Positions 958 to 40,416 of a stretch of 64,000 nt of DNA are shown in pieces. This stretch comes from an uncultured Muribaculaceae bacterium. GTDB lineage: Bacteria; Bacillota_I; Bacilli_A; RF39; UBA660. Every line of letters starts with the position of its first letter. The stretch's first letter is position 1. The notes under the pieces were generated by a model. That model did not search any database. It was not told the DNA's origin and was given only the letters and a program-made list of their open reading frames with translations. The stretch spans positions 7,551-71,550 of the forward strand of contig CAZBQC010000001.1 of the NCBI GenBank assembly GCA_964494015.1. Reading direction: 5' to 3'. The position numbers and the translations under genes were made by a program.

Positions 958-1006
958 GTGTTATGATATTCGTGTATAATATGTAAAAGATAGGAGACTA
1001 TTTATG
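925..1006 (+). repeat. Copy 1 of a duplicated ~80-nt upstream block: terminator-like ACTAGTACTTATT, an extended -10 promoter (TGTTATGAT / TATAAT) and an RBS.
   Basis: About 80% identical to 2150-2230. Both copies end in GGAGACTATTTATG / GGGGACTATTTATG. Confidence 0.7.
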
Positions 1007-1942
1007 AGTAAAAAGATTATTTTTTCCTTGATATTGTTTGTTGGAGTTTTTTTTGCGTTTGGTATAAGAGTTAAAGCCGTAAATTGTTTTTATCATAAAT
1101 ATGATTCAAATACAAGTGGACCAGATTCTACCATAAGCTTAAATATTAATAATTATGGTACTCAATCTGCTACTGTTACATTAATGGCTACGCCTGAAAA
1201 GATAACACCTGACTCAGCAAAATATGCTGACTTGACAAGCATCGATTTACTGACAGAAAAAAAAATAGGTTTTTATTACGAACAAGCAGCTCTTGGGGGT
1301 GATTATCAAGTTGAAGGAGATAGATTTATAACTTTTAGTGGAGATAGTTGTAAAGATGGAAAATGTTGCCCGCTGTATGTTGGATTTAATGTTCATAGTC
1401 CTAATGAAGAAGGTCAAGAGTATAATCCAAATATTTTTATTGTTGGTGATAATATTATTACTAGGGTAGAAGGAAGTTTCTTACCGACAGGTAATACCAT
1501 ACTTCCCGTTAAAGAAAATTGGAAAACATCTGGTGTCAGCTCAAAATCAGAAATCCCAACGATATTTACGCCACAATATATTTATGGAACATACATTGTA
1601 GATGAGGAAAAAACGGAAGATAAAATTGATAAATATGAAGGTCTTATTGGAACAGATGTTGAAAATACTTGTGAAGGTATTTTAGGTAAAGATTTCGTTG
1701 ATTTTATGAATAACTATATATTTTTGCCTCTAAAAATCATTGTACCGATATTGTTCTTGATATTTACAATTTTAGATTTTTCCAAAGCTGTTTTTGCAGA
1801 AGATAAGGATGCTCTTAAACATGCCCAATCTAAACTTATTAAAAGAGCGATTACTGTAGTTTTGTTATTTTTACTTACATATGTTTTAGATCTACTGTTT
1901 GCAATAGTTACTAATGGAAGAATTACTGATTGTTTTAAGTAG
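1004..1942 (+). CDS. T4SS-associated secreted surface protein, paralog A. It has a signal peptide, a variable ectodomain and a conserved C-terminal two-helix membrane hairpin.
   Basis: N-terminal signal peptide MSKKIIFSLILFVGVFFAFGIRVKA. The last ~100 aa (ENTCEGILG...TNGRITDCFK) are conserved with 2228-3175. There are two hydrophobic helices separated by a charged loop. An RBS (AGGAG) lies 8 nt upstream. Confidence 0.5.
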   Translation: MSKKIIFSLILFVGVFFAFGIRVKAVNCFYHKYDSNTSGPDSTISLNINNYGTQSATVTLMATPEKITPDSAKYADLTSIDLLTEKKIGFYYEQAALGGDYQVEGDRFITFSGDSCKDGKCCPLYVGFNVHSPNEEGQEYNPNIFIVGDNIITRVEGSFLPTGNTILPVKENWKTSGVSSKSEIPTIFTPQYIYGTYIVDEEKTEDKIDKYEGLIGTDVENTCEGILGKDFVDFMNNYIFLPLKIIVPILFLIFTILDFSKAVFAEDKDALKHAQSKLIKRAITVVLLFLLTYVLDLLFAIVTNGRITDCFK

Positions 1943-2149
1943 GCTTTTTGTGATGAAAAAGGAATTTTTACTATTAATTACTAAGATACTTTTTTATTAA
2001 TATTCATTAAAAGATTTTATTGATTTTGTATTTTTAATAAAAGGATACAAGATTGCTGTTACTGTGAAAATGTTGTGATATTTATTTTTTAGATATTTTT
2101 ATTTACTTTTACATGAGCTATTACATTATATTATTGGTTATATTTTCAT

Positions 2150-2230
2150 AAAAATACACTAGTACTTATTCTTATTTTATGTTATGATATTTGTATAAAA
2201 TATATTGAAGACGATAGGGGACTATTTATG
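2150..2230 (+). repeat. Copy 2 of the duplicated upstream promoter block.
   Basis: See 925-1006. Confidence 0.7.
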
Positions 2231-3175
2231 AACAGAAAAATTATTTTTTCATTAATCTTGTTTATTGGAGTATTCTTTGTGTTTGGTGTAGAAGTTAAAG
2301 CTGCTGATGAATATAGCTGTACATATTATAAATATAATGGTGGGGATGAATCTGGAAATATAGTATATCGAGATGATAAAGAATTAACTATTGTAAACTA
2401 TAATCAAGCGGATTTAGGAGTTTACTTTAACGGTATAAAAATCTTTGGAAATCAAATCGCTAGTGGTCCCTTAAGAGGTGGAGAAGTAGCATCTTCAAAA
2501 AACGAAAACATTACATTTGCTGCTGATACTCTCGTCGTCTCGAGAGTAGCTAATAAGATAGATTTTCACGATGATGTTATTAATTTTGGATATTGTCCAA
2601 AGTATGTTGGATTTTATATTGTATATTTTCCTTTTGATACCGCGTATATTTATTTTCATATTGCTGGCAGCTCTATACCTGCTCATACTCCACCTGCTGC
2701 TAACGGTGTTTGGCTTTCTGTTATGAATTCGGGAGAGAAGTTGATTTCTGGAACCGATAATAAATCCGATCAAAATGAGAATTATTATGGGTTATACATT
2801 TCTGATGCAGCCATTAAAGAGCAGAATCCCGATTTTGTGTCTAAAACAAAAGGTATAGTTTTGGAATATTCTGGTATTATTGGAACTCCAGTTGAAAATA
2901 CTTGTGAAGGTATTTTAGGACAAGAGTTTATCAATTGGTTAGTTGATTATATATTTAATCCTTTGAAAATAATTTCTCCAATATTACTTTTAATCTTTAC
3001 GACCTTAGATTTTGCTAAAACAGTATTTGGAGAAGATCAAGAAGCTCTTAAAAAGGCTCAATCTAATTTTATAAAAAGAACTATTGCTGTTGTTTTATTG
3101 TTTTTGCTTGCATATATCTTGGATCTTGTTTTTACAATAGTTACCAACGGAAGAATTGATGTCTGTATCAAATAA
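2228..3175 (+). CDS. T4SS-associated secreted surface protein, paralog B. The ectodomain has diverged and the C-terminal hairpin is conserved.
   Basis: Signal peptide MNRKIIFSLILFIGVFFVFGVEVKA. It shares the CP(L/K)YVGF and ENTCEGILG...IVTNGRI C-terminal module with paralog A. Confidence 0.5.
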   Translation: MNRKIIFSLILFIGVFFVFGVEVKAADEYSCTYYKYNGGDESGNIVYRDDKELTIVNYNQADLGVYFNGIKIFGNQIASGPLRGGEVASSKNENITFAADTLVVSRVANKIDFHDDVINFGYCPKYVGFYIVYFPFDTAYIYFHIAGSSIPAHTPPAANGVWLSVMNSGEKLISGTDNKSDQNENYYGLYISDAAIKEQNPDFVSKTKGIVLEYSGIIGTPVENTCEGILGQEFINWLVDYIFNPLKIISPILLLIFTTLDFAKTVFGEDQEALKKAQSNFIKRTIAVVLLFLLAYILDLVFTIVTNGRIDVCIK

Positions 3176-3202
3176 AGTTTATTTCAGTTAAGGAGGTAAT
3201 TC

Positions 3203-5494
3203 ATGTTTGTATTTATATTGGCTGGAGATAGTATAGAAAACTGGATTCGTCAAATCTTTGTTAGTATTGATGTGGGAATTTTTTGGCTATTTGAACAGGT
3301 GTTAGCAAATGTTTTTGTTGTAGCTGGAGTAACTATTTTTAATGAAAAAATTATTAATGAAGTGCTAAATAGAATTTATATAATTATAGGATTATATATT
3401 ACATTTAAATTAGCTTTTTCGATTATCACTTATATTGTTTCTCCTGATAAAATGTCTGATCAGGAACAGGGGTTTGGTAAAATTATTACTAGAGTAATTA
3501 TCGCTTTATCACTTTTAGTTTTAGTTCCCTCTATTTTTGATTATGCTCGGAAAGCTCAATTTTATATTCTTCCAGTAATTCCTAGAATTATCTTGGGAAT
3601 ATCTTTTAACGCTGATGATCCTTCAAATGAAACGAATGAGATCAGTGAATCTACTATTAAACAAATTGCCCAAGCGATGTCATTAAATACTTATTTATCT
3701 GTTTTTAATTATAACACAAACTGTAATGATGCACATAATACGATTGCAGGTACTCCTGAAGCAACGGATCCAAACCAATTTTTAGTTGGCAAAATGAGTC
3801 ATATTTATGGAGCAGTCAATATTATGTGTGGTACTACTGAGGACGAATATAAATTTCAATACACCACATTTGTTGGTTTGGTTTTAGGATGCTTTTTAAC
3901 TTATATGATGTTGGGGATATCCATTGATGTGGCTATTCGAGCAATTAAGCTTGGTTTATTAGAGTTATTAGCTCCGATACCGATTATGAGTTATATTGAC
4001 CCAAAGTCTTCTAAAGATGGGGCATTTAGTAACTGGGTCAAATACTCGATATCAACCTATGTTGATTTGTTTGCCAGAATAAGTATTATATATTTAGTTA
4101 TCTTTTTCTTTGATCAATTATTCCAAGGGAATGTTCTAGGTGAATATGGTGCTCTTGTTTATATATCAATTATTGTTGGAATCTTTTTCTTTATGAAACA
4201 GTTTCCTAAGTTTATCAAAGATATCCTTGGATTAAAAGGTGAAGGACACATGTTTAGGGATGTTCTTACAGGGCGTGGCACTTTTGGATTGGCTACTGGT
4301 ACAATTGGAGGGGCTTACAAAGCTAAAAAAGAAGGTGGGTCAGCATTCCTTGGAGCTATAGGTGGTTTAGGGGGATCTACAAAAAAGTTTCTTAGTAATG
4401 CTGTGAAGGATGAAAGAGGGGGTACAGTTAGACCTGGTGCTAAAGCTGGAGAAGAAGTAGCTAAAGTTAATACCGGTTTTCGTGGAAGAATGAATAGGGC
4501 GGCTGGTGGAGCAAGAGCTAATAGATTAGGATATACACAATCACGAGTTGACGACTTGAGATCAGCTACGGAAAAGGCTAAATTGTTAGCAGATCAAGCT
4601 GGAAAAGAGTATAGTGCTGCTGTAACCTCTCGTAGACCTGCTTCCGAAGTTGATGCGGCACAAGCAAAGTATGATACGGCAAGGGAAGGTTATGAAAATA
4701 TTAATAAACGATATACACAGTTTAAGGGTGCCCGAGATAGTATGGTAAAAGAAATGCCGGCTGGAGAACAAATTGAAGCCGACAAAAAAGTAGCTCGGGG
4801 AAGATTAAAAACTGAGTATAAAGAGAACTTGGGTGCTGCTAGAAGTGAAAGAAAAGAAGTGGCTAGGGAAGCAAAAGAAGCTAGAATAGGTCTAAGAGAG
4901 AGTTATGAAAGTGAAGTGGAACCAGTTTTAAAAAGAAGAACAAAAACTGGTACTAGTGTAAAAAAAATTAATGACGCTATTAGAGATGAAAATGTAAAAC
5001 TAAGCAGAATACAAAGTGATATAGCTGATAGTCAAGGACTTCTTGATGAGTTAGAAGTCGATGGAGATCCTGCCGATGCTTCCAAAATTACTGAGTTAAG
5101 AGCTCACATTAGTGAAAAAGAATTAGAAAAATCAGATATAGAAAACGAAATAAAATTAAAACAAGAGGAGTTGCCAAGTGCAGAAAGAAAGTTTAAAAGA
5201 GCTAATCAAGATGTAAATAGAATAGAGGGGAAATATAGCGCATCTAAAAGAGGAATTAACGCTGCTGCTGCTGGAAATATAGGAGTAGCTAAGCAAAATA
5301 TTAGTGATTTAAAAGATGCTTATAGTAATGCTAAGGAATCAATTGATTCTGGTACTTATCTATTTAGTTCTTCGTCAACATCAAGTCCAGCACCAGCACC
5401 AAGTCCTGCATCAGCGCCAACAACTCCTGAGCCTTCTGCTGAAACTTCTCGATTGGATACTGTTCGACCTGGTGATGACGATGATGTCATGTGA
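3203..5494 (+). CDS. VirB6/TrbL-like polytopic membrane protein with a ~430-aa charged, disordered C-terminal extension.
   Basis: 6-7 predicted TM helices in the first ~340 aa. It sits in a T4SS gene context. The rest is K/E/A/R-rich coiled-coil-like sequence ending in a Pro/Ser-rich and acidic tip (SSPAPAPSPASAPTTPEPS...DDDDVM). RBS AGGAGG. Confidence 0.5.
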   Translation: MFVFILAGDSIENWIRQIFVSIDVGIFWLFEQVLANVFVVAGVTIFNEKIINEVLNRIYIIIGLYITFKLAFSIITYIVSPDKMSDQEQGFGKIITRVIIALSLLVLVPSIFDYARKAQFYILPVIPRIILGISFNADDPSNETNEISESTIKQIAQAMSLNTYLSVFNYNTNCNDAHNTIAGTPEATDPNQFLVGKMSHIYGAVNIMCGTTEDEYKFQYTTFVGLVLGCFLTYMMLGISIDVAIRAIKLGLLELLAPIPIMSYIDPKSSKDGAFSNWVKYSISTYVDLFARISIIYLVIFFFDQLFQGNVLGEYGALVYISIIVGIFFFMKQFPKFIKDILGLKGEGHMFRDVLTGRGTFGLATGTIGGAYKAKKEGGSAFLGAIGGLGGSTKKFLSNAVKDERGGTVRPGAKAGEEVAKVNTGFRGRMNRAAGGARANRLGYTQSRVDDLRSATEKAKLLADQAGKEYSAAVTSRRPASEVDAAQAKYDTAREGYENINKRYTQFKGARDSMVKEMPAGEQIEADKKVARGRLKTEYKENLGAARSERKEVAREAKEARIGLRESYESEVEPVLKRRTKTGTSVKKINDAIRDENVKLSRIQSDIADSQGLLDELEVDGDPADASKITELRAHISEKELEKSDIENEIKLKQEELPSAERKFKRANQDVNRIEGKYSASKRGINAAAAGNIGVAKQNISDLKDAYSNAKESIDSGTYLFSSSSTSSPAPAPSPASAPTTPEPSAETSRLDTVRPGDDDDVM

Positions 5495-5531
5495 TTTTGG
5501 TATTATGAAAATTAAAGGAGTGTGATACTTA

Positions 5532-5846
5532 ATGAATAACTATTTAATTCCAGCTAACAGCAAAAAAGGTCAATTAATTTTTGGTATCTTCAAAGGTGAT
5601 GATTTGATTATTTTTGGTGTTGGTGTTGGAGCGACATTACTAGCCTTGATAATTTTTCCTACTACCGATATAGTGACTGGAATACTTTGTCTATTACCGG
5701 CATTGGTAGCGGCACTTTTAGTATTTCCAGTTGCTAACTATCATAATGTTCGGACGGTTATCAAGGAAGTAATAAAATTTTACAGTGAGTCAAGAAGATA
5801 TATATGGAAAGGTTGGTGTTCTTCATATGAGCCAAAAAAGAAGTAA
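5532..5846 (+). CDS. Small two-TM membrane protein, VirB3/PrgI/TcpE-like.
   Basis: 104 aa with two hydrophobic helices. It lies immediately upstream of VirB4, as in Tn916 orf17/orf16. Confidence 0.45.
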   Translation: MNNYLIPANSKKGQLIFGIFKGDDLIIFGVGVGATLLALIIFPTTDIVTGILCLLPALVAALLVFPVANYHNVRTVIKEVIKFYSESRRYIWKGWCSSYEPKKK

Positions 5847-6378
5847 TTCTAGGTATACCGAAGATTGGATTCCAATCAAAGGTATTAGTGATGGTTCGAT
5901 TTTACTACCTAATAATTATCGAGTTACAGGTGTCAAAATCACTCCTCGAAATATCTTTATTATGGATGATTTGGAGCAAGAAAATGTTATGACGGCTCTA
6001 AAGAATTTCTATAATATGCTTAATTTTGAATTTTGGCTTATTGTGGCAGATCGTCCAGTTGACATATCGGTCTATTTATCCCAGTTGCAACTTTTATACA
6101 ACGATGCCTCTAATCAAGCCATTCGTAAATTAATTAATCAGGATATTAATAAAGCTAATATGTTTATTAATAATAATGTTGTCGATACGGAATATTACTT
6201 ATTATTTAGAGATAAAGATCCGGAGATTATTCAGAAGAAAGTTCGTTTGTTAATTAATGGGCTTGGAAGTTGTGGGCTTAATGCCAGTAAGACAACTGAT
6301 GATGATCTGAGAATAATTCTAGATAATTTCTTAAATGGTGGGGTTAGGACAGAATTTGGAACGGTGGTGCCACTATGA
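5785..6378 (+). CDS. VirB4-family conjugal transfer ATPase, N-terminal segment (separate ORF).
   Basis: The sequence DWIPIKGISDGSILLPNNYRVTGVKITP resembles the N-terminus of Gram-positive VirB4/TraE proteins. Its TGA stop overlaps the ATG of the next ORF (ATGA). The start is uncertain: GTG at 5785 or ATG at 5827. Confidence 0.5.
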   Translation: MSQEDIYGKVGVLHMSQKRSNSRYTEDWIPIKGISDGSILLPNNYRVTGVKITPRNIFIMDDLEQENVMTALKNFYNMLNFEFWLIVADRPVDISVYLSQLQLLYNDASNQAIRKLINQDINKANMFINNNVVDTEYYLLFRDKDPEIIQKKVRLLINGLGSCGLNASKTTDDDLRIILDNFLNGGVRTEFGTVVPL

Positions 6379-8159
6379 GTTTAAAATCAGAAATAGCTCC
6401 TAAAGGATTAGAATGGATGCCTAGTGAGTTTAGAATTAGTGATAAGTATGCCACTTTTTTAACAGTTGTATCTTATCCTAAATTCATTAATCCTGGTTAT
6501 CTATCAAATCTTACTAGTACACCAGGAATTAAGATTGTTATTAAACATATACCTGTACCTTTTTCAACGATTCAAAAGATGCTTAATAAACAAATTGCTG
6601 ATTTAAGGGTTCGCTATAACGAAGAAAAAGACAGGACGATGCAGGAGAGAATTAGACTTGATGCTGAAAGTTTGGAATACTTTGTAACGATGTTAGCTTC
6701 GAGTCAGTCTTTAATCTTTGATTTTCAATTACATATTATGGTTACGGCTGATACTAAAGATGAATTAGAATTAAAGAAAACCAATGTTAAGAATTACTTA
6801 GATGCTATGGAGTTGCGTGCTGTAACTCTTCGTTTTCAGCAAGAAACAATTTTTAAATCGGTTTTACCGATTTTCCCAAAACAGGCTATTGAAGAACGTA
6901 TCGGAACTCCTATTCCTTCAGTGACTGTCGCAGCCATGTATCCGTTTATTTTTGATAGCATTAAGGATCCTGGTTTATCAATTCTTTTTGGAGTAGACTT
7001 TTCTGGTGGTGTTATTCTCTTTAATCAGTTTTTATTTAAGATTCGTAAAGAGACCAATCGAAATAATGCCAATATGGTTATTTTAGGTACTTCAGGTAGT
7101 GGTAAATCTACTGCTGCTAAACTTTTATTGCGTGGTCATATTCGAAATGGTTGTCAAATTGTAGCGATCGACCCCGAAAATGAACTTGAAGAAATGACGA
7201 CGCTTTATGGTGGAGATGTAGTCGATATTGGCAAAGGTGGAGAGTTTGGAATGGTTAATCCTCTTCAAGCCATTATGGATGCCGATGAAGAAGAAGTGGC
7301 CAGTGGTCTTGGATATACTGTTTTAACTAGAACCTTACAATTTTTGAAAGCCTTTATGCGTTATTATTCACCGGATATTCAGGATGATGTTTTAACTCTT
7401 TTCAGTGAAGTTGTTCAAGATACTTATCAGAGATTTGAAATAAATTTTGATACTGATTTTTCAGATTATGAACCGGAAGATTTTCCAACTTTCAGCGATG
7501 TTTATGCTACCATTAAGGGAAGATTGACGTCGATGACCGATGCGACTCATGAACGAGATGTCATGGAACGACTTGAATTAAAAGTACGTCCATTTACTAA
7601 AGAATTAAGATATTACTTTGATGGACCGACAACTATACCATCGGATTCAGACTTTATTGTCTTCAATATTAAAGAGATAATGAATGCTGATACTAATATT
7701 AGAAATGCTTTATTCTTTAATATTTTAAAATATGCTTGGGGACTTTGCTTAGATCAGTCAGTTGATACAGTGTTAATGGTTGATGAAGCCCATGTCCTAT
7801 TAAGTGGCAACAATATTTTAGGAGCCGACTTTTTAGGTCAGGTTCAAAGACGTGCCAGAAAGTATAACACGGGAACGATTATTATTACACAACAACCTAG
7901 TGATTTCTCTGATCCTAATATTATCACTCAAGGTAAGGCTATTTTTGATAATGCCGCCTATTATTTAGTCATGGGACTAAAGAAACAGGCAGTTGAAGAT
8001 TTGTCATTGCTTATTGACTTAAACGATAATGAGAGAGAGAGTATTAAGAGATATTCACAAGGACAAGCCCTGTTTGTCTGTGGTAACCGTAGGATGCAAA
8101 TAGATGTTGTCGTTACTCAAGAAGAATTAGAATCATTCGGTAGTGGCGGAGGATTATAA
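6375..8159 (+). CDS. VirB4-family conjugal transfer ATPase (TraE/PrgJ/TcpF-like), main body.
   Basis: Walker A ILGTSGSGKSTAAK and Walker B LMVDEAH. VirB4-like length and context. Confidence 0.75.
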   Translation: MSLKSEIAPKGLEWMPSEFRISDKYATFLTVVSYPKFINPGYLSNLTSTPGIKIVIKHIPVPFSTIQKMLNKQIADLRVRYNEEKDRTMQERIRLDAESLEYFVTMLASSQSLIFDFQLHIMVTADTKDELELKKTNVKNYLDAMELRAVTLRFQQETIFKSVLPIFPKQAIEERIGTPIPSVTVAAMYPFIFDSIKDPGLSILFGVDFSGGVILFNQFLFKIRKETNRNNANMVILGTSGSGKSTAAKLLLRGHIRNGCQIVAIDPENELEEMTTLYGGDVVDIGKGGEFGMVNPLQAIMDADEEEVASGLGYTVLTRTLQFLKAFMRYYSPDIQDDVLTLFSEVVQDTYQRFEINFDTDFSDYEPEDFPTFSDVYATIKGRLTSMTDATHERDVMERLELKVRPFTKELRYYFDGPTTIPSDSDFIVFNIKEIMNADTNIRNALFFNILKYAWGLCLDQSVDTVLMVDEAHVLLSGNNILGADFLGQVQRRARKYNTGTIIITQQPSDFSDPNIITQGKAIFDNAAYYLVMGLKKQAVEDLSLLIDLNDNERESIKRYSQGQALFVCGNRRMQIDVVVTQEELESFGSGGGL

Positions 8160-8188
8160 AAACAATTAATAGTAGGAGGTGACTTGGA

Positions 8189-10567
8189 ATGGATTTATCT
8201 GCACAAAGGAAAAAATTACTAGATCGTAACAATCTAGTAAAAAATCAAAGAAAAAATATTAGTAATAGTAATTCTAATTCTAATTTTAATTCTAATGAAC
8301 AAGACACCTCTAATCCGCTTGCCAATCGTAAACCTCATCCTAATAAATCACTTTTTGGTCGATCAGATGGGGTTGATAAAAATCAAGACTCAAGTGATGA
8401 AACAAAAGATTCTAGTGAACCAGCAAGTACTGCTGGTAATAGCAATGCTGATACTAGTGATGAGTCAACTGATCTTTTAGGTGGTCTTAACAATCAGGTT
8501 TCAGGTAAGATTAAGGGGACTTTGGTTACTAAAGCGTTAGCAGTCGCTAGTCCTTTCCTTTTTGTAGGCATTTTCGTTGTCATTATTATCATTATTGTTA
8601 TTATTGAGTTAAAAAAATATTTACCATTTTTAAGTTATGGTGCTAATACCACTATTAGTGTTAATGCTAATAATACATCTTATAACTCTGTTACTCATAC
8701 GACTTCTGAAACTGATCCATTAAGAGCAAAAGAAGATCTCTTTAATCAAAAATTGGATGAAGTTTGGAATGTTTTCAACGACAAAGCCAATGTAAGTATC
8801 GATATTGATTATATTATCGGAGCTTTGTTTTATGACAAGATTGATCTCCAATTTTTAGAGTCGGAAGATTTGACGACTGAAGAAGTGACCGGTACTTATA
8901 AGAATGGTCTTGAAAAGATTTACATTTTGGCTCAGTATCAAGTTACTACTCACATCTATGAAAATAATGATAGTGGTGAATCTTCAGTTGATCCTACTGA
9001 AAAAAGAGAAGTAGCTAAAAATGATGCATCTGATACTGCTGAGACCTGGTATAAAGAAATTTTTAATGGTACTTGGAATTATGAAGAAGCTAATTTTCAA
9101 ACCCATTATGGAGAATTTGAAAATTTAGATACAGTTTATACCGTCGATGTTTCTAAGAAAGGGGTTTTTTATTGGAATTTAGTTGATGGGGATTTTATTA
9201 CTACTTATTATGCCAATCAATTTACTTCTGATATGACCGATGCTCAAAGAGAGGCTAAAAAAATTATTATTGCCGATAGAATATATCAGTTTGTTGAAGA
9301 CTTTAAAAAAGTTAAAAATAAAAATTATGGATATTTAACTGATGGATTAAAGGTTAATTTATATACCTGTGACTATAATGAAACACTTTATTTCCTTGGT
9401 GGTAACGGGTATAGTGTTTCTACTCTCGCCAATGAAGGAACAAGTTATCCGACTTACACTAATTTTAAAAATTATGTTAAGGGTGCTATTTATGGAGAAA
9501 TACCGTCTAGTATGAATGAAAATACTAAGGAGTCGGTTAAAGCGTTTATTATTGCTTTTAGTAGCTATGCTTTAGCTAGATCTAGTTACAGTAGTGGTGC
9601 TACTGAAATTGATGTCCATGTGGGAAATTGTTGGCAATTATCGTGTGATCCTTTATTAGGATGCCAATATTGCAATAGTAAAATTGGAAAATACGGTACG
9701 AATATAACTGGTGTAGATTCAACCTGTCCACATGGTAGGATTTGGTCGCCAAGAGAACCACTTGACGAGGCAACTAATGCTTGGTTCGATTCAGTTGTCG
9801 ATGAAGTTTTCGGTACAGTTATGATGAATGCTTCAGGAAATTTCTTTCGTGCTGGTCATTATGATAAAAAATCCAACCCAAATTGTGGAGCTAATTGCAT
9901 GGGGCAGGCTGATGCTGTTAAGGATGCTGCAAATGGCATGACTTATGAGCAAATTTTAGCTAAGTATTATTCTGGCTATGAGCTTGTCAATATTAAAGAA
10001 GATTTGTATATCCAAAATGCTAATTATGGTAATGGTGGTGTCGTTCTCAACCAGCTTTTTCATTATCATCAGGGAGATTATACAGAACGTAACTTTTGTG
10101 GTAGATCTGATGCTAGTATTGCTTCATCAGGTTGCGGTGTCGTAGCCGGTGCTATTGCGGTCTCGCTTTTAAAAAACCAGGCTGTTGATCCTAAAACAGT
10201 TATGGAGTTTGCTCATGCCAATAAAATGTGTGGTTATGGTATAAGTGGTACAGATGCGGGAGTATATGAATTGCTGGCTAAGAAACATCAGTTAAATTAT
10301 TCAGTGACCTACAAAGATAATGCTGTTGCTGTTGTCGATGCTTTAAAGACTAGTAAAGCCGTGGTTGTTGCCCATATTCCAGCTGGTACCAGTGGAACTT
10401 ATTCCAGCGGTTCTGGACACTATATCGTTTTTGTGGCCATCAATGCTAATGGACAAGCTTTAGTCTGGGATCCAGGGTATCGAAATAATCCACAACGTGA
10501 TAATGCATGGCATGATATGAATGAATTAGTCAAATATACCGATGCATACTATATATTGTCGAGGTAA
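8189..10567 (+). CDS. T4SS cell-wall hydrolase (VirB1 functional analogue) with a SpoIID/LytB-like domain and a C39-like/papain-like cysteine peptidase domain.
   Basis: N-terminal NSNSNS low-complexity region and a single TM helix (FLFVGIFVVIIIIIVII). ALARSSY...NCWQLSCDP...ILAKYYSGYEL resembles SpoIID. CG...SGCGVVAGA...GHYIVFVAINANGQALVWDPG is a Cys/His/Asp triad layout of the C39_2 type. RBS AGGAGGTGA. Confidence 0.45.
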   Translation: MDLSAQRKKLLDRNNLVKNQRKNISNSNSNSNFNSNEQDTSNPLANRKPHPNKSLFGRSDGVDKNQDSSDETKDSSEPASTAGNSNADTSDESTDLLGGLNNQVSGKIKGTLVTKALAVASPFLFVGIFVVIIIIIVIIELKKYLPFLSYGANTTISVNANNTSYNSVTHTTSETDPLRAKEDLFNQKLDEVWNVFNDKANVSIDIDYIIGALFYDKIDLQFLESEDLTTEEVTGTYKNGLEKIYILAQYQVTTHIYENNDSGESSVDPTEKREVAKNDASDTAETWYKEIFNGTWNYEEANFQTHYGEFENLDTVYTVDVSKKGVFYWNLVDGDFITTYYANQFTSDMTDAQREAKKIIIADRIYQFVEDFKKVKNKNYGYLTDGLKVNLYTCDYNETLYFLGGNGYSVSTLANEGTSYPTYTNFKNYVKGAIYGEIPSSMNENTKESVKAFIIAFSSYALARSSYSSGATEIDVHVGNCWQLSCDPLLGCQYCNSKIGKYGTNITGVDSTCPHGRIWSPREPLDEATNAWFDSVVDEVFGTVMMNASGNFFRAGHYDKKSNPNCGANCMGQADAVKDAANGMTYEQILAKYYSGYELVNIKEDLYIQNANYGNGGVVLNQLFHYHQGDYTERNFCGRSDASIASSGCGVVAGAIAVSLLKNQAVDPKTVMEFAHANKMCGYGISGTDAGVYELLAKKHQLNYSVTYKDNAVAVVDALKTSKAVVVAHIPAGTSGTYSSGSGHYIVFVAINANGQALVWDPGYRNNPQRDNAWHDMNELVKYTDAYYILSR

Positions 10568-10569
10568 AA

Positions 10570-11274
10570 ATGAAAAAATATAAATTATTGTTTTTAGTTA
10601 TATTGGTAGTTATTTTAACTGGTTGTCAAAGTACGACTAGTATTATAATTAATAAAGATTTATCAGTTAGTGAAGAAACATGGATCACTCAGGATACTGA
10701 GTTTTGGAATAATTTCTATAAGACTAGTCCGGCTTCATTAATTAATGAAGCTTTAAGTGATGAAAAGAATAAAAAGTTCTTAATCGATAACAATTATACT
10801 TATCGTACTGAGATTAGTAATTCTTTCAAAGGAGTAATTTTAGAAAAAAATTATTCATCACTGGAAGAATACTCTTCCAATTCAGCTTTAGCTAAAATAC
10901 CTTTTGATAAGTTAATCTATCAACAAAATGGAAATATTATTTCAGTTAAAACGGAAGGATTTAATTCATATCAAGACATAGTGGAAGATTTAGATGCCAT
11001 TTTAGTCAAATATGCCAAAATAAGTGTTTCAGTTCCTTATATTGTAACAGAACATAATGCTGATAAAGTCGATAAGGTAAATAATGTTTTTACTTGGGAA
11101 ATTGATAAAGAAACGACGGAAAAAAGTATTGTTTTAGAGTTTGATCAAAGTCGTTTGTTTATTAAACATCTTGATTTATATATATCTTTGGGAATAATTT
11201 TATTACTTTTAAGCATTCTTGGAGTGTGGTATTTAAAAATTCGAAAAAGTAATAAAATTAATAATAGAATTTAA
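10570..11274 (+). CDS. T4SS-associated lipoprotein with an additional C-terminal TM anchor. It is a possible VirB8/TcpC-position protein.
   Basis: Lipobox LTGC at residues 16-19 and a C-terminal hydrophobic helix LGIILLLLSILGVWYL. It sits between the hydrolase and the T4CP. Confidence 0.4.
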   Translation: MKKYKLLFLVILVVILTGCQSTTSIIINKDLSVSEETWITQDTEFWNNFYKTSPASLINEALSDEKNKKFLIDNNYTYRTEISNSFKGVILEKNYSSLEEYSSNSALAKIPFDKLIYQQNGNIISVKTEGFNSYQDIVEDLDAILVKYAKISVSVPYIVTEHNADKVDKVNNVFTWEIDKETTEKSIVLEFDQSRLFIKHLDLYISLGIILLLLSILGVWYLKIRKSNKINNRI

Positions 11275-11282
11275 AAGGTTTT

Positions 11283-11292
11283 GTGTTATAAT
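11283..11292 (+). promoter_or_regulatory. Extended -10 promoter (TGTTATAAT) for the coupling-protein gene.
   Basis: TGn + TATAAT lies 35 nt upstream of the GTG start. RBS AGGAGG at 11313-11318. Confidence 0.4.
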
Positions 11293-11326
11293 ATTCCTAG
11301 TTAATGAGCTTTAGGAGGTATGAGTC

Positions 11327-14290
11327 GTGAAATTAAAAATTAGAGCAGAATCAAAAGATGCTACAATCTTCATCATTTTTGCAGTTTTTCTTTTATATTT
11401 AGTAGCAGTCGGAGTACTTAATTTATCTAGTTTTGCCAGTTTTGGTGAATTTTATGGTTTAAATCCAATTGAAGCCTTTTCAGGTCGTTTTATTGTCCCA
11501 ACTATTATCTTTTATTTAATCGCTTTAGGCTCACTCTTCTTTACGACGGGATCATACTTTTTTGATTTAGAAGAGGGGATTGGTTTTTCTATCGGTTCAA
11601 AAAAAGAAAAGGGTTATAGTCGCTGGGCAACGGCTAAAGAAATGAAGAAAGAGTTAAAACTTGTTTATCCTCATGAAGAGAATTCTAGATATGCGGGTAT
11701 TCCTCTTATTAATAATGGTAAAGAAATCTGGGTTGACGACAGTCATTACCATAATTTAGTTATCGGTTCAACGGGTAGTGGTAAGACAACAGCTGTTATT
11801 TTCCCGATGGTCAGATTGCTTGCTAAACATAATGAATCAATGATTATTACCGATCCTAAAGGTGAAATTTATGAAAAGATGGCTGTCATGCTTAAATCAC
11901 GTGGTTACAATATCGTTTTATTGAATTTCCGTAATCCTCAAAATGGTAATTCATGGAATCCATTATCGATGCCATATAATCTATATAAAAATGGCAATCA
12001 GGATAAATCAATCGAGTTACTTGATGACTTAGCGCTTAATATCTTGTATGATGAAACTAATAAAAATGCCGATCCTTTCTGGGAAAAGACCTCGGCCGAT
12101 TATTTTTCTGGTATTGCTCTAGGTCTATTTGAGGATGCTGATCCGTCACAAATCAATATCAACAGTATCAGTTTAATGTCGACAGTCGGCGAAGAAAAAT
12201 TTGGTGGTTCGACCTATATTAAAGAATATTTTAATGGAAAAGATCCTACTGGTTCAGCCTTCATCAATGCTTCCAGTACGATTTTGGCACCAAGTGAAAC
12301 CAAGGGAGGGATTCTAGCTGTCTTTAAGCAAAAGATAAAACTTTTCGCTTCTCGTGAAAACCTATCAGAAATGCTTTCACATAGTGATTTTGATTTGTCG
12401 GATATTGGTAAAAAGAAAACCGCTTTATTCATCATTATTCAGGATGAGAAGAAAACCTATCATTCTTTGGCGACAATCCTTTTAAAACAGTGTTATGAAA
12501 CTTTAATCGACGTGGCTCAAGATAATGGTGGCGAACTGCCCATTAGAACTAATTTCTTAGTTGATGAGTTTGCCAATATGCCACCTTTAAAAGATATTGA
12601 CGTTATGATTACAGCAGCTCGAAGTAGAAAAATTCGTTTTACTTTGATCATTCAAAACTTTGCTCAGTTAAATGAAATTTATGGTAAAGAAACAGCTGAA
12701 ACTATTAAGGGTAACTGTGGAAATATGCTTTATTTGATCAGTACCGAGTTAGCTGCTTTGGAAGAGATAAGTAAAATGTGTGGTGAAGTAAAATCTAAAG
12801 AGAAGGATAAAACTGCTTCGACACCATTAATTACCGTCACTGATTTACAAAAATTAAAGTTAAATGAGGTCATTATCCGAAGAATTCGTCTTTCGCCATT
12901 TAAGACTAAATTAAAGGCCGAATACGAAATGAATTGGGGAAGAACTTATCCGAAAGCTCAGTATCCAGTTCGTGAAAAACAACCGATCAATATCTTCGAT
13001 ATGAGGACTTTTGTCAAAGAAAAAAAGAAAGCTAAGATGAATGAAATTTTGAATATGGATGCCAGTGGCAGTGATCCAATGGGAGGGTTTAATCCTAATA
13101 TGCCACCGTTCTTTAATCAAAATATGTTTAACAGTGAATCGCCGCCAGTTCAGGCTAATCCATATGGGATGAATGATCTTCCTCCTAATAATAACGATTT
13201 TAATATCGATGACTTGGTTAAGAAAATTGATCAGAAGATTGCTGAACTGGAAGAGGAAGAAAAAAGAAATAATCTGGCCATCGCAGCTGAGAATACCAAT
13301 TTACTGGAAGAACCAAAGGCAAGTCCTAATTTAGATCAAGCTATGGACAATTTTAAAATTGATCAGCCAATGATGGAAGAAAAACAGGTTGCTGAAGTCA
13401 GTCCTAGTCCAGGACCAGTATCATCGGAAAAAATTGTTGATTCTGATGTCGTCAATCAACCAAAAAACAATATTTTAGAAGCGGTCCCAATTCCAAACAA
13501 TAATTATTTTGAACCAATTTCTAAGAAGGAAGTTGTGCCAGCTAATATTAATTATCGTGATTTATATAATGACGAAGAAGATTCTGGCGGTGCGGTTCGG
13601 GAGATGGATAATATCAATCCCAAGGCTATTTATAACGTTTTAGAATCAACTAATTATGAATTGCCTAAAGAAGATAGACCGATTATTAAGGATGAGAAAC
13701 CTTTAGAAGACAAGGTAGTGGTAAGTGAACCAGTTAAGGAGGAACAACCAATACTAAATGCTGATTCCATACCAGTTAATGAAGAGGAGATTAATGATTT
13801 ATTTAAGAGTTTGAAAAATAATGTCGAGGAAGAAACTTTCTTTGATCAAAGAACACCTTTAAATAACAGTTTCAGTAGTCGACCTCGCTGGTTTGCTGTC
13901 GAAGAAGAGAACCAAGGTTATACAGCAGTTAGAAGACCAAAATCAAATAATCAGAACTCAGCTTTTGATTCAACTAACCACCCTAATGATAAAGTTTTTG
14001 ATAAGGGTTTGCCAGAAGATAGTTTTATCAGTCAGGAAACAGTCAATTTAAAACCAGTTGATCAACCAGTGGTAGTTGAGAAAGTAAAGTTGGAAACTGA
14101 TGATCTGTTTAAACCTAAAGACGCTAATCTCAATTGGTTTTCCGAACACGAAAATGATATAAAAAGTACAACTTTAGCAATTAATCCGGAAAATCTTCAA
14201 GAAGATATCAAGCAAGAAACCGTTAATGAAGAAACCGAATATAACGAAATAACTGATGATCAATTCTTTGATGATTTCTTTGATGACTAG
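11327..14290 (+). CDS. Type IV coupling protein (VirD4/TraG-like ATPase) with a very long acidic disordered C-terminal tail.
   Basis: N-terminal TM helices. Walker A LVIGSTGSGKTT, a DPKGE motif and Walker B LVDEFANMP. About 430 C-terminal residues are low complexity (N/P/E/D-rich) and end in DDQFFDDFFDD. Confidence 0.7.
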   Translation: MKLKIRAESKDATIFIIFAVFLLYLVAVGVLNLSSFASFGEFYGLNPIEAFSGRFIVPTIIFYLIALGSLFFTTGSYFFDLEEGIGFSIGSKKEKGYSRWATAKEMKKELKLVYPHEENSRYAGIPLINNGKEIWVDDSHYHNLVIGSTGSGKTTAVIFPMVRLLAKHNESMIITDPKGEIYEKMAVMLKSRGYNIVLLNFRNPQNGNSWNPLSMPYNLYKNGNQDKSIELLDDLALNILYDETNKNADPFWEKTSADYFSGIALGLFEDADPSQININSISLMSTVGEEKFGGSTYIKEYFNGKDPTGSAFINASSTILAPSETKGGILAVFKQKIKLFASRENLSEMLSHSDFDLSDIGKKKTALFIIIQDEKKTYHSLATILLKQCYETLIDVAQDNGGELPIRTNFLVDEFANMPPLKDIDVMITAARSRKIRFTLIIQNFAQLNEIYGKETAETIKGNCGNMLYLISTELAALEEISKMCGEVKSKEKDKTASTPLITVTDLQKLKLNEVIIRRIRLSPFKTKLKAEYEMNWGRTYPKAQYPVREKQPINIFDMRTFVKEKKKAKMNEILNMDASGSDPMGGFNPNMPPFFNQNMFNSESPPVQANPYGMNDLPPNNNDFNIDDLVKKIDQKIAELEEEEKRNNLAIAAENTNLLEEPKASPNLDQAMDNFKIDQPMMEEKQVAEVSPSPGPVSSEKIVDSDVVNQPKNNILEAVPIPNNNYFEPISKKEVVPANINYRDLYNDEEDSGGAVREMDNINPKAIYNVLESTNYELPKEDRPIIKDEKPLEDKVVVSEPVKEEQPILNADSIPVNEEEINDLFKSLKNNVEEETFFDQRTPLNNSFSSRPRWFAVEEENQGYTAVRRPKSNNQNSAFDSTNHPNDKVFDKGLPEDSFISQETVNLKPVDQPVVVEKVKLETDDLFKPKDANLNWFSEHENDIKSTTLAINPENLQEDIKQETVNEETEYNEITDDQFFDDFFDD

Positions 14291-14302
14291 AGAAACTTCC
14301 TA

Positions 14303-14350
14303 CCTATTTGTAATACTATAACATATAATACAAATAGGAGGGAGTTTTTT
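14303..14350 (+). terminator. Hairpin plus T-run downstream of the T4CP gene.
   Basis: Perfect 10-bp inverted repeat CCTATTTGTA / TACAAATAGG with a 16-nt spacer, followed by GTTTTTTATTT. Confidence 0.4.
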
Positions 14351-14354
14351 ATTT

Positions 14355-14648
14355 ATGGATACCATCGCCGTTATCGACTTTAAAAAAATAACTGGTATGG
14401 TTAAAGTAATAGATTTAAGAGATAATTATAAATATAATTTAAATAAAATACCTAATTCTATCAATGTACCATTTAGTTTTCTCATTACCAATCCTGATGA
14501 TTATATCAATAAAAATGATACTTACTATTTAATTTGTGAGTATGGTAAAAAGAGTTTAGAAGTCTCTAAGATTCTCAATCGACAAGGTTATAAAACGATT
14601 AGTATCTTAGGAGGATATCGAGATTATCAAAAAGAAGTTTCTGATTAA
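14355..14648 (+). CDS. Single-domain rhodanese-like sulfurtransferase.
   Basis: 97 aa with an active-site Cys loop CEYGKKS. RBS AGGAGGGAG. Confidence 0.6.
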   Translation: MDTIAVIDFKKITGMVKVIDLRDNYKYNLNKIPNSINVPFSFLITNPDDYINKNDTYYLICEYGKKSLEVSKILNRQGYKTISILGGYRDYQKEVSD

Positions 14649-40365: not shown

Positions 40366-40416
40366 AGATAGCCATAATAATACTGTAGCTTTGCTTTTAA
40401 AAAGGAGTTGATCCTT

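What the first reader, a model, noticed from the sequence alone, without database searches (positions are those of the whole stretch)
8189..10567. The T4SS wall-remodelling enzyme combines a SpoIID/LytB-like domain with a C39-like cysteine peptidase.
After a low-complexity NSNSNS stretch and one TM helix, the protein has a segment resembling SpoIID lytic transglycosylases (ALARSSY..CWQLSCDP..ILAKYYSGYEL). It then has a C-terminal Cys..His..Asp arrangement (SGCGVVAG ... GHYIVFVAI ... VWDPG) typical of C39_2/papain-like peptidases. Known Gram-positive T4SS hydrolases use SLT, CHAP or NlpC/P60 domains. A sporulation-type SpoIID domain recruited into a T4SS would be a new domain combination.
Basis: partly seen in the sequence, partly recalled or inferred. 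Interest (0 to 1): 0.55.

Follow-up and report, generated by a model that had tools for sequence, protein, structure and literature searches.

The report
T4SS wall enzyme: SpoIID plus cysteine peptidase
A membrane-anchored protein in the middle of a chromosomal type IV secretion gene cluster joins a SpoIID-type glycan-cutting domain to a papain-like (C39_2) cysteine peptidase, a pairing not reported for secretion-system wall hydrolases, and it defines a family of at least 70 unannotated metagenomic protein clusters.

Summary
ORF 8189-10567 (+) encodes 792 aa: a low-complexity cytoplasmic tail, one TM helix, a helical domain of unknown fold, a SpoIID-like domain (about 385-605) and a C39_2/papain-like domain (about 619-792). 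The window protein alone gives only sub-threshold Pfam/NCBIfam hits. Family evidence is strong: all 58 aligned relatives hit Peptidase_C39_2, 24 hit Pfam SpoIID, and the family profile finds solved SpoIID structures at E 2e-8. An AlphaFold model (pLDDT 84.6) matches papain-like peptidases, SleC and SpoIID. Q628/C649/H744 are invariant and D761 is present in 62 of 63. The Glu aligned to the C. difficile SpoIID catalytic E101 is E437, and the C-x5-C zinc motif is C486/C492. In six divergent lineages the gene lies between VirB4 and a lipoprotein plus VirD4. The module is chromosomal, syntenic with housekeeping flanks, and has no relaxase in 64 kb. The likeliest role is a VirB1-type wall hydrolase. 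I infer, but have not shown, that the peptidase strips stem peptides so the SpoIID domain can cut bare glycan. Corrections: the quoted SpoIID motifs are not the catalytic residue, the combination is a family and not a one-off, and the system may not be conjugative. Novelty: new variant of a known kind.

The parts
8189..10567 (+). Complete ORF (792 aa plus stop): membrane-anchored SpoIID-like + C39_2-like protein
8174..8179 (+). Shine-Dalgarno AGGAGG, 9 nt upstream of the ATG
8189..8524 (+). Residues 1-112: low-complexity (S/N/D-rich) N-terminal tail, inferred cytoplasmic. 27% identical to the orthologue.
8525..8617 (+). Residues about 113-143: single TM anchor (Kyte-Doolittle 19-residue maximum 3.42)
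   Evidence: 58 of 70 two-domain relatives have an N-terminal TM, and the other 12 are short, probably truncated sequences
8717..9340 (+). Residues 177-384: mostly helical extracellular domain of unknown fold. pLDDT is mixed, with low confidence at about residues 264-310. The last ~60 residues are conserved in the closest ~35 relatives.
   Evidence: no Pfam, PDB or PHROG match
9341..10003 (+). Residues 385-605: SpoIID/LytB-like domain (putative lytic transglycosylase)
9497..9499 (+). Codon E437: aligns with the catalytic E101 of C. difficile SpoIID (motif G-x-x-x-G-E). Glu in 43 of 63 family members.
9644..9664 (+). C486-x5-C492: same spacing as the Zn-binding C140-x5-C146 turn of C. difficile SpoIID, and C492 aligns with C146. 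C486 is invariant (63/63) and C492 is present in 62/63.
10043..10564 (+). Residues 619-792: papain-like cysteine peptidase domain of the Peptidase_C39_2 type
10070..10072 (+). Codon Q628: putative oxyanion-hole Gln, invariant 63/63
10133..10135 (+). Codon C649: putative nucleophile (S-G-C-G), invariant 63/63
10418..10420 (+). Codon H744: putative general base (G-H-Y), invariant 63/63
10469..10471 (+). Codon D761: putative third triad member (V-x-D-P), 62/63
3203..5494 (+). Neighbour: 763-aa polytopic membrane protein. It is VirB6-like by size and topology and gives a weak T4SS_pilin hit at its N-terminus.
   Evidence: MPF-FA VirB6 proteins are 700-900 aa (PMC12857230)
5532..5846 (+). Neighbour: 104-aa membrane protein with a hydrophobic region at residues 22-71 (likely two TM helices), possibly VirB3-like. 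Conserved in all contexts.
5785..8159 (+). Neighbours: TraC-like 197-aa protein (5785-6378) and VirB4 ATPase (6375-8159)
10570..11274 (+). Neighbour: 234-aa lipoprotein (lipobox LTGC) with a C-terminal TM. It always follows the hydrolase, in one or two copies.
11327..14290 (+). Neighbour: VirD4/TraG-type coupling protein
14355..14648 (+). Neighbour: 97-aa rhodanese. It follows VirD4 in 4 of the 6 lineages examined, so it may belong to the module.

Best explanation
This is the VirB1-type cell-wall hydrolase of a monoderm (MPF-FA-like) type IV secretion system. A single TM helix anchors it in the membrane. Its N-terminal tail stays in the cytoplasm and three domains sit outside: a helical spacer, a SpoIID-like lytic transglycosylase and a papain-like (C39_2) cysteine peptidase.

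Shown:
- The two domain identities.
- Conservation of the catalytic residues (E437; Q628/C649/H744/D761).
- The membrane anchor.
- The fixed gene position between VirB4 and a lipoprotein plus VirD4 in six divergent lineages.

Inferred mechanism: the enzyme opens a local gap in peptidoglycan so the channel can assemble or pass its substrate. SpoIID enzymes cut only glycan strands already stripped of peptides. I therefore propose that the cysteine peptidase acts first as an amidase or endopeptidase on stem peptides, and that the SpoIID-like domain then cleaves the denuded glycan. That would put the two-protein SpoIIP-then-SpoIID logic of sporulation into one polypeptide.
For: **Domains**
- All 58 aligned relatives hit PF13529 and 24 of 58 hit PF08486.
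- Precomputed Pfam gives PF08486 plus PF13529 on P0152 and P0030.
- The family profile hits PDB SpoIID 4rwr, 5i1t and 5txu at E 2e-8 to 5e-6, in two colinear stretches.
- The AF2 model has pLDDT 84.6. Foldseek matches it to Alr0975, staphopain, the pseudomurein endoisopeptidase PeiR, the C39-like 3erv, SleC, and SpoIID 5i1t at probability 0.96.

**Catalytic residues**
- E437 aligns with CdSpoIID E101, and C486-x5-C492 corresponds to C140-x5-C146. I checked the numbering against the published Zn ligands.
- Q628, C649 and H744 are invariant, and D761 is present in 62 of 63.

**A wall-directed role for this C39_2 subtype**
- Its nearest viral structural relatives sit inside phage tape-measure proteins and phi29 gp13-like wall hydrolases, at 21-24% identity and rmsd 2.6-3.4 A.
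- Peptidase_C39_2 is catalogued as a catalytic domain of lysins from phages of Gram-positives (PMC8223927; PMC13284279).

**Context**
- The gene order is the same in six lineages.
- All known Gram-positive VirB1 homologues are membrane-anchored with extracellular catalytic domains (PMC12857230).
- 58 of 70 two-domain relatives have the TM anchor, and the rest are short, probably truncated sequences.
- Distant members add M23 or CHAP domains, as multidomain T4SS hydrolases such as PrgK do.
- Relatives carrying the module have FtsW/RodA and MraY next to it, so a wall exists.

**Sequential mechanism**
- SpoIID alone is inactive on intact peptidoglycan and needs strands denuded by SpoIIP (PMC6221140).
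- The domain order SpoIID then C39 holds in 70 of 70 two-domain proteins.
Against: - No activity has been measured, and the bond cleaved by any C39_2 domain of this subtype is unknown to me.
- The window protein's own Pfam/NCBIfam scores are below the curated cutoffs.
- About 20 of 63 relatives have N, Y or S in place of the SpoIID catalytic Glu while keeping the peptidase tetrad. The peptidase therefore does not depend on an active SpoIID domain, and in those members the SpoIID-like domain may only bind glycan.
- The two His ligands of the C. difficile Zn site are not conserved (G491 replaces H145), so metal binding is uncertain.
- The Foldseek match to SpoIID itself is modest (E 0.09).
Confidence: 0.72

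Rival explanations
1. The enzyme acts on another cell's wall, that of a recipient, partner or prey. It would be the outward-facing cutting or adhesion tool of a relaxase-less chromosomal T4SS that has been co-opted for cell-cell interaction or DNA/nutrient acquisition, as proposed for Patescibacteria.
For: - The module is chromosomal and syntenic with typA and polA flanks in a relative.
- No relaxase or integrase lies in the 64 kb window.
- The extracytoplasmic parts (hydrolase 50%, lipoprotein 50%, VirB6-like 54%) diverge much faster than the housekeeping genes (77-91%) or VirB4 (93%). That is the pattern expected for surfaces that meet a variable partner.
- The closest viral folds are virion enzymes that breach walls from outside.
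- Patescibacteria have a similar relaxase-less chromosomal T4SS, with essential peptidase/lysozyme genes just downstream of virB4 (PMC12102498).
- Inactive VirB1 homologues have been proposed to act as adhesins (PMC12857230).
Against: - The protein is tethered to its own membrane by a TM helix. The extracellular spacer is only about 200 residues, so reaching across two walls is doubtful.
- Fast divergence of surface parts also fits phage or immune pressure.
- A relaxase could lie outside the 64 kb window.
- Nothing is known about the lifestyle of this organism.
Confidence: 0.15
2. The C39-like domain is a protein-processing protease, as classical C39 domains are when they cut double-glycine leader peptides. 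It would mature a T4SS pilin, adhesin or substrate, or process the hydrolase itself, and would not cut peptidoglycan.
For: - 17 of 58 relatives also give weak hits to the classical PF03412 Peptidase_C39 family, and 21 to C70 (AvrRpt2).
- Structural neighbours include true proteases such as staphopain and SpvD.
- The module begins with two paralogous small membrane proteins and a protein with a weak T4SS_pilin hit, all of which could be substrates.
Against: - The best Pfam match by far is C39_2, not C39.
- The nearest viral relatives are embedded in wall-degrading virion proteins.
- The domain is always fused to a glycan-cleaving domain, and in distant members to M23 or CHAP wall peptidases.
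- No double-glycine leader substrate was identified.
Confidence: 0.08
3. It is an antibacterial effector, and the downstream lipoprotein is its immunity protein, as in the Xanthomonas/Stenotrophomonas killing T4SSs.
For: - A lipoprotein gene always follows the hydrolase gene directly.
- Peptidoglycan-hydrolase effectors with lipoprotein immunity partners are known for killing T4SSs (PMC6759196, listed; the pairing itself is from my own knowledge).
Against: - The protein has an N-terminal TM anchor and no recognisable C-terminal secretion signal domain.
- It occupies the canonical VirB1 slot next to VirB4.
- The lipoprotein also has a C-terminal TM helix, which fits a structural wall-spanning subunit better.
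Confidence: 0.05

Closest known systems
Gram-positive VirB1-type T4SS hydrolases: PrgK (pCF10; LytM-muramidase-CHAP), TraG (pIP501; SLT-CHAP), Orf14 (Tn916), CwlT (ICEBs1; muramidase + NlpC/P60)
   Same: - N-terminal TM anchor with extracellular catalytic domains.
- One glycan-cleaving domain plus one Cys/His peptidase-type domain.
- Gene placed next to virB4.
- A long cytoplasmic tail, as in the DELTA-class PrgK (PMC12857230).
   Different: - The glycan domain is SpoIID-like, a different fold from SLT or lysozyme-type muramidases.
- The peptidase is C39_2-type, not CHAP or NlpC/P60.
- There is an extra helical domain of unknown fold.
- The host module is chromosomal with no relaxase in view.
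- The CwlT domain composition is from my own knowledge.
SpoIID (B. subtilis, B. anthracis 4rwr, C. difficile 5i1t/5txu), the sporulation lytic transglycosylase
   Same: - Profile match at E 2e-8 over two colinear stretches.
- The catalytic Glu is conserved (E437 = E101).
- The E-x-x-K-A helix is present, and so is the C-terminal Q...G-x-x-Y-x-x-I-L-x-x-Y-Y motif.
- C-x5-C at the Zn turn, as in C. difficile SpoIID.
   Different: - The window protein is below the Pfam and TIGRFAM cutoffs.
- An insertion of about 30 residues lies between the two matched stretches, and it carries an extra Cys at 513.
- The His Zn ligands are absent.
- It is fused to a peptidase instead of partnering with a separate SpoIIP and SpoIIM.
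- The context is a T4SS, not a sporulation operon.
Peptidase_C39_2 (PF13529) domains, including 3erv (B. anthracis putative C39-like peptidase) and C39_2 domains of Gram-positive phage lysins and tail proteins
   Same: - Near-full-length profile match (positions 12-142 of 143).
- The Q/C/H/D arrangement.
- The papain-like fold.
   Different: - The window protein scores 20.7 bits against a cutoff of 24.
- This subfamily has two extra invariant Cys residues (C637 and C681), perhaps forming a disulfide.
- Substrate specificity has not been established for any close relative.
Relaxase-less chromosomal T4SS of Patescibacteria (PMC12102498)
   Same: - Monoderm-type T4SS on the chromosome and widely conserved in a lineage.
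- No relaxase nearby.
- Wall-enzyme genes immediately downstream of virB4.
   Different: - A different phylum: this organism is an uncultured Bacilli/Mollicutes-like gut lineage.
- The Patescibacterial VirB1 homologues described there carry SLT/CHAP, M23 or LysM, not SpoIID or C39_2.

Membership tests
SpoIID/LytB (Pfam PF08486; NCBIfam TIGR02669) | Sequence score at or above the curated cutoff | tested here: not met
   The window protein scores 15.9 bits on PF08486 (cutoff 23) and 16.5 bits on TIGR02669 (cutoff 83.3). Relatives in the same alignment do pass, for example P0067 at 41.4 bits and P0062 at 32.3 bits. Homology is therefore supported by transitivity and by the family-profile hit to PDB SpoIID at E 2e-8.
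SpoIID/LytB (Pfam PF08486; NCBIfam TIGR02669) | Catalytic glutamate (E101 in C. difficile SpoIID, essential in vitro and in vivo; PMC6221140) | tested here: met
   E437 aligns with E101. It is Glu in 43 of 63 family members and in all 16 closest ones.
SpoIID/LytB (Pfam PF08486; NCBIfam TIGR02669) | SpoIID fold | tested here: met
SpoIID/LytB (Pfam PF08486; NCBIfam TIGR02669) | Lytic transglycosylase activity on denuded glycan strands | not testable with these tools
   This needs purified protein and muropeptide LC-MS.
Peptidase_C39_2 (PF13529), clan CA papain-like | Sequence score at or above the curated cutoff | tested here: not met
   The window protein scores 20.7 bits against a cutoff of 24, at E 6.8e-4, covering profile positions 12-142 of 143. 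All 58 aligned relatives hit the family at E < 0.01, best 2e-16, and many are well above the cutoff at 43-53 bits.
Peptidase_C39_2 (PF13529), clan CA papain-like | Gln / Cys / His / Asp(Asn) catalytic arrangement in papain order | tested here: met
   Q628, C649 and H744 are invariant, and D761 is present in 62 of 63.
Peptidase_C39_2 (PF13529), clan CA papain-like | Papain-like fold | tested here: met
   Foldseek gives probability 1.00 to Alr0975, staphopain, PeiR and 3erv, and E 1e-8 to a phage peptidase.
VirB1-type T4SS peptidoglycan hydrolase of monoderms | Encoded within a T4SS gene cluster next to virB4 | tested here: met
   This holds in the window and in five further lineages.
VirB1-type T4SS peptidoglycan hydrolase of monoderms | Membrane anchor with extracellular catalytic domain(s) | tested here: met
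   A single TM lies at about 113-143, and 58 of 70 relatives have one. The criterion is from PMC12857230. The N-in/C-out orientation is inferred, not measured.
VirB1-type T4SS peptidoglycan hydrolase of monoderms | Homology to the SLT / muramidase / CHAP / LytM domains that define classes ALPHA, BETA and DELTA | tested here: not met
   The window protein has no SLT, lysozyme, CHAP, NlpC/P60 or M23 hit. Only distant relatives add M23 or CHAP. It is therefore a functional analogue outside the existing classes.
VirB1-type T4SS peptidoglycan hydrolase of monoderms | Required for T4SS function; degrades peptidoglycan | not testable with these tools
   This needs genetics and biochemistry in an organism that has not been cultured.

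The most novel reading that the evidence does not exclude
The protein is the wall-cutting head of a vertically inherited, relaxase-less chromosomal T4SS that is conserved across a deep lineage of uncultured, genome-reduced gut Bacilli. That system would not be used for conjugation. It would serve obligate cell-cell interaction or uptake of DNA or nutrients from neighbouring bacteria, as proposed for Patescibacteria. Its single-polypeptide 'strip the peptide, then cut the glycan' engine would be derived from the sporulation engulfment machinery.
Probability: 0.15. Interest if true: 0.8.

Novelty: new variant of a known kind. Interest (0 to 1): 0.52.

Why it matters
T4SSs of monoderm bacteria must cross a thick wall, and the enzymes that open it are few and fall into a small set of domain types (SLT, muramidase, CHAP, NlpC/P60, LytM).

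- **A new hydrolase solution.** This family adds a solution built from two different folds. It suggests a testable mechanism in which a peptidase feeds denuded glycan to a SpoIID-type transglycosylase.
- **A possible evolutionary link.** It points to a link between the sporulation engulfment machinery and secretion-system assembly.
- **A detection gap.** The family is missed by current annotation. The sources give no names, the window protein falls below the Pfam cutoffs, and CONJScan-type VirB1 profiles would not be expected to find it.
- **An undescribed T4SS lineage.** It marks a conserved chromosomal T4SS in poorly known gut Bacilli whose function is open.

Tried and rejected
- **First AlphaFold run.** With a two-sequence alignment it gave pLDDT 34.8 and was unusable. 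It was replaced by a run with a 63-sequence alignment.
- **Word-index homologue searches.** Two searches returned almost nothing, the second probably because low-complexity N-terminal words swamped the candidate set. A trimmed alignment gave only 8 hits. The exhaustive HMMER search was what opened up the family.
- **Genome collection scan with the protein.** It found no relative. The organism had to be placed through PolA instead.
- **Exact look-up of the window protein's contig.** It failed.
- **PDB searches with the single sequence or the two-sequence profile.** They gave only noise: arsenate reductase and a geopilin.
- **My first assignment of E448 as the catalytic Glu.** This was wrong. 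E448 lies in the conserved E-x-x-K-A helix (E109 in C. difficile numbering). The catalytic E101 aligns with E437.
- **Other scans without result.** PHROGs gave nothing for the hydrolase or its unknown neighbours. Annotated plasmids and phages hold no two-domain relative, only partial C39_2 matches. Cluster look-up gave no source names. Rfam and tRNA scans of the window were empty.
- **L024.** I examined it as a possible sister module with a different hydrolase. It holds only an orphan truncated VirD4.
Full report
**1. The observation**

The ORF at 8189-10567 (+) is real and encodes 792 aa. An AGGAGG ribosome-binding site lies 9 nt upstream of its ATG. There is one strong hydrophobic segment at about 113-143. 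A weaker one at 642-662 is the buried catalytic helix of the peptidase fold, not a membrane helix.

The neighbours confirm a type IV secretion context:

| Window position | Neighbour |
|---|---|
| 3203-5494 | 763-aa polytopic membrane protein with a weak T4SS_pilin hit |
| 5532-5846 | 104-aa membrane protein with a hydrophobic region at residues 22-71 |
| 5785-6378 | TraC-like protein |
| 6375-8159 | VirB4 |
| 10570-11274 | lipoprotein |
| 11327-14290 | VirD4 coupling protein (PF02534, E 3e-55) |

**2. Domain identities**

On its own the window protein gives only sub-threshold matches:

| Family | Residues | E-value | Score or coverage |
|---|---|---|---|
| Peptidase_C39_2 (PF13529) | 645-762 | 6.8e-4 | 20.7 bits (cutoff 24); profile positions 12-142 of 143 |
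| Pfam SpoIID (PF08486) | 424-470 | 0.021 | 15.9 bits (cutoff 23) |
| NCBIfam SpoIID_LytB (TIGR02669) | 571-600 | 0.006 | matches the last 30 positions of the model |

The two SpoIID hits are colinear with the start and the end of a SpoIID domain. That was suggestive but not sufficient.

The word-index homologue search found one orthologue, P0002, at 50% identity. The exhaustive HMMER search found 1104 relatives at E<=1e-3 and 48 at E<=1e-30, and dozens of 700-850 aa proteins matched across the whole region 330-809. In an alignment of 58 of these:
- Every member hits Peptidase_C39_2 (best E 2e-16), and 24 hit Pfam SpoIID (best E 7e-8).
- Individual relatives pass the curated SpoIID cutoff, for example P0067 at 41.4 bits and P0062 at 32.3 bits.
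- Two relatives carry precomputed PF08486 plus PF13529 annotations.
- The family profile hits the solved SpoIID structures 4rwr (E 2e-8), 5i1t and 5txu in two colinear stretches.

A first AlphaFold model from two sequences was useless, with pLDDT 34.8. A second model of residues 165-791, built from a 63-row alignment, reached mean pLDDT 84.6 and mostly above 90 from residue about 315 onward.
- Against the PDB, Foldseek matched the C-terminal domain to papain-like enzymes: phytochelatin-synthase-like Alr0975, staphopain, the pseudomurein endoisopeptidase PeiR and the 'putative C39-like peptidase' 3erv.
- It matched the middle domain to the germination lytic transglycosylase SleC (E 4.7e-4) and to SpoIID 5i1t (probability 0.96, E 0.09).
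- Against viral models the best matches (21-24% identity, rmsd 2.6-3.4 A) were a phage peptidase and domains inside a tape-measure protein and phi29 gp13-like 'morphogenesis protein 1' wall hydrolases.

**3. Catalytic residues**

For the peptidase, Q628, C649 and H744 are invariant in 63 sequences that are only 23-59% identical to the query, and D761 is present in 62 of 63. This is the papain-order Gln/Cys/His/Asp set. C637 and C681 are also invariant and may form a disulfide; that is an inference.

For the SpoIID-like domain I first took E448 to be the catalytic Glu, which was wrong. PMC6221140 establishes E101 as the catalytic residue of C. difficile SpoIID and H134/C140/H145/C146 as its zinc ligands. 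Indexing the aligned fragment of 5txu puts H134, C140, H145 and C146 exactly on those numbers and puts E101 in the 'LAGEM' motif. That position aligns with E437 here ('IYGEIP'). E448 and K451 belong to the conserved E-x-x-K-A helix.

E437 is Glu in 43 of 63 members and in all of the closest 16. A more distant subgroup of about 20 proteins has N, Y, S or D there while keeping the peptidase tetrad.

C486-x5-C492 is invariant or nearly so. It has the same spacing as C140-x5-C146, and C492 aligns with C146. The two His ligands are not kept (G491 replaces H145). Other Cys residues (C481, C566, C570) are common in the family.

**4. Architecture across the family**

I built domain HMMs from the trimmed alignment and searched all 157 retrieved cluster representatives.
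- 70 have both domains, always in the order SpoIID-like then C39-like.
- 58 of those 70 have an N-terminal TM segment. The 12 without one are 145-635 aa long, against a median of 814, and are probably truncated by contig ends.
- Some distant members (1095-1315 aa) add a Peptidase_M23 or a CHAP domain, as multidomain T4SS hydrolases do.

**5. Genomic context**

Six lineages show the same order: large membrane protein, ~105-aa protein, TraC-like protein, VirB4, hydrolase, one or two ~230-aa lipoproteins, VirD4. The six are the window, P0002, P0153/P0005, P0155, P0055 and P0081, the last two at roughly 22-25% identity. A small rhodanese follows VirD4 in four of them.

The flanks are chromosomal:
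- typA upstream and polA, a cation-efflux gene, fpg and uvrC downstream in the window.
- FtsW/RodA and MraY next to the module in other lineages.

Identity between the window and its relative L001:

| Group | Gene: identity |
|---|---|
| Housekeeping flanks | typA 91%, polA 82%, uvrC 82%, fpg 77% |
| Cytoplasmic T4SS parts | VirB4 93%, TraC-like 90%, VirD4 67% |
| Extracytoplasmic T4SS parts | VirB6-like 54%, hydrolase 50%, lipoprotein 50% |

The module is therefore vertically inherited at a fixed locus, and its extracytoplasmic parts evolve much faster than the rest. Within the hydrolase, identity by region is 27% (cytoplasmic tail), 58% (N-domain), 65% (SpoIID-like) and 51% (C39-like).

No relaxase or integrase is present in the 64 kb. 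PolA places the organism among uncultured gut 'Bacilli / Mollicutes / Tenericutes' MAGs, at no more than about 60% identity to any species representative. The window also carries SpoIVB, a SpoVID-N/LysM protein and a polysaccharide deacetylase. The lineage therefore has a wall and has, or once had, sporulation genes.

**6. Mechanism**

- **Shown:** domain homology, conserved catalytic residues, the membrane anchor, and the fixed position in the T4SS cluster.
- **Established elsewhere:**
  - All known Gram-positive VirB1 homologues are membrane-anchored with extracellular catalytic domains that open the wall for the channel (PMC12857230).
  - SpoIID is inactive on intact peptidoglycan and cleaves only glycan strands from which SpoIIP has removed the peptides (PMC6221140).
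  - Peptidase_C39_2 is counted among the catalytic domains of lysins from phages of Gram-positives (PMC8223927; PMC13284279).
- **Inferred:** the protein is the wall hydrolase of this T4SS. Its cysteine peptidase removes or cuts stem peptides, and the SpoIID-like domain then cleaves the bared glycan. This would be the SpoIIP-then-SpoIID sequence in one chain.

The subgroup that has lost the Glu but kept the peptidase shows that the peptidase is the indispensable activity. The sequential model cannot therefore hold for the whole family.

**7. Rivals**

- **Action on a partner cell's wall, in a co-opted non-conjugative T4SS.**
  - For: the missing relaxase, the vertical inheritance, the fast-evolving surface parts, and the parallel with Patescibacteria (PMC12102498).
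  - Against: the membrane tether.
- **A protein-processing role for the C39-like domain.**
  - For: weak C39/C70 hits and protease neighbours.
  - Against: the constant fusion to wall enzymes and the phage relatives.
- **An effector with a lipoprotein immunity partner.** This is unlikely given the anchor and the VirB1 slot.

**8. Comparison with the known, and novelty**

The December 2025 review lists CHAP, SLT, muramidase and LytM as the domains of Gram-positive VirB1 homologues, in classes ALPHA, BETA and DELTA. Full-text searches found no paper that links SpoIID or C39 to a T4SS hydrolase. The nearest mention is a sentence noting that a few 'polyvalent proteins' of phages and conjugative elements carry a SpoIID-like domain (PMC5512222). 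No annotated plasmid or phage record holds a two-domain relative, and the public sources give the family members no names.

The protein works like a VirB1-type hydrolase but lies outside the existing classes, so I rate it a new variant of a known kind.

Noticed in passing
window 1004-14648; loci L001, L058, L060, L061, L063, L064: The whole T4SS module is chromosomal and vertically inherited. It has the same flanks (typA, polA) in a relative whose housekeeping genes are about 80% identical, the same gene order in six lineages, and no relaxase or integrase in 64 kb. The extracytoplasmic parts are 50-54% identical while VirB4 is 93%.
   Followed up: partly
window 14355-14648; L001 12355-12642; L063 15086-15358; L064 18053-18322: A ~90-97 aa rhodanese gene follows VirD4 directly in four of the six lineages. 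A PedC-like thioredoxin lies just upstream of the module in L063 and L064. Both hint at thiol/disulfide chemistry linked to the Cys-rich extracellular hydrolase.
   Followed up: no
L024 4393-5754: In a related genome (UMGS1739) a truncated VirD4-like gene (453 aa) stands alone next to polA, with a DNA polymerase III alpha gene upstream and no other T4SS gene. It looks like a decayed remnant of the module at the same locus.
   Followed up: partly
window 52689-53735 and 51998-52597: Ribosomal proteins S2 (348 aa) and L20 (199 aa) both carry a C-terminal extension that matches the Rho_N domain (E 7e-9 and 1e-6). This is an unusual fusion seen twice in one window.
   Followed up: no
window 40408-41400, 44562-45266, 46436-47665: Three sporulation-type genes are present: a SpoIVB S55 peptidase, a SpoVID-N plus LysM protein, and a polysaccharide deacetylase. 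They sit in a lineage usually labelled Mollicutes/Tenericutes-like, which suggests a walled lineage that forms spores now or did once.
   Followed up: no
window 1004-1942 and 2228-3175: Two paralogous ~312-aa membrane proteins (an N-terminal signal/TM plus two C-terminal TM helices) head the module. They have no family match. Only their N-terminal ~30 and C-terminal ~100 residues are conserved in the relative, where a single 383-aa gene stands in their place.
   Followed up: partly
alignment A4: P0037, P0040-P0047, P0050, P0053, P0056-P0059, P0065, P0071-P0074, P0082-P0103: About 20 family members have N, Y, S or D in place of the SpoIID catalytic Glu but keep the full cysteine-peptidase tetrad. 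Their SpoIID-like domain may be a non-catalytic glycan binder.
   Followed up: partly
window 19302-20153, 34876-35658, 36283-37215: KilA-N, Bro-N and RhuM/Fic domain genes are scattered among housekeeping genes. They are possibly phage-derived or defence-related insertions.
   Followed up: no
window 27505-30357 and 47737-51042: Two large surface-type proteins are present: a 950-aa protein with four Big_2 domains and a 1101-aa protein with DUF6273.
   Followed up: no
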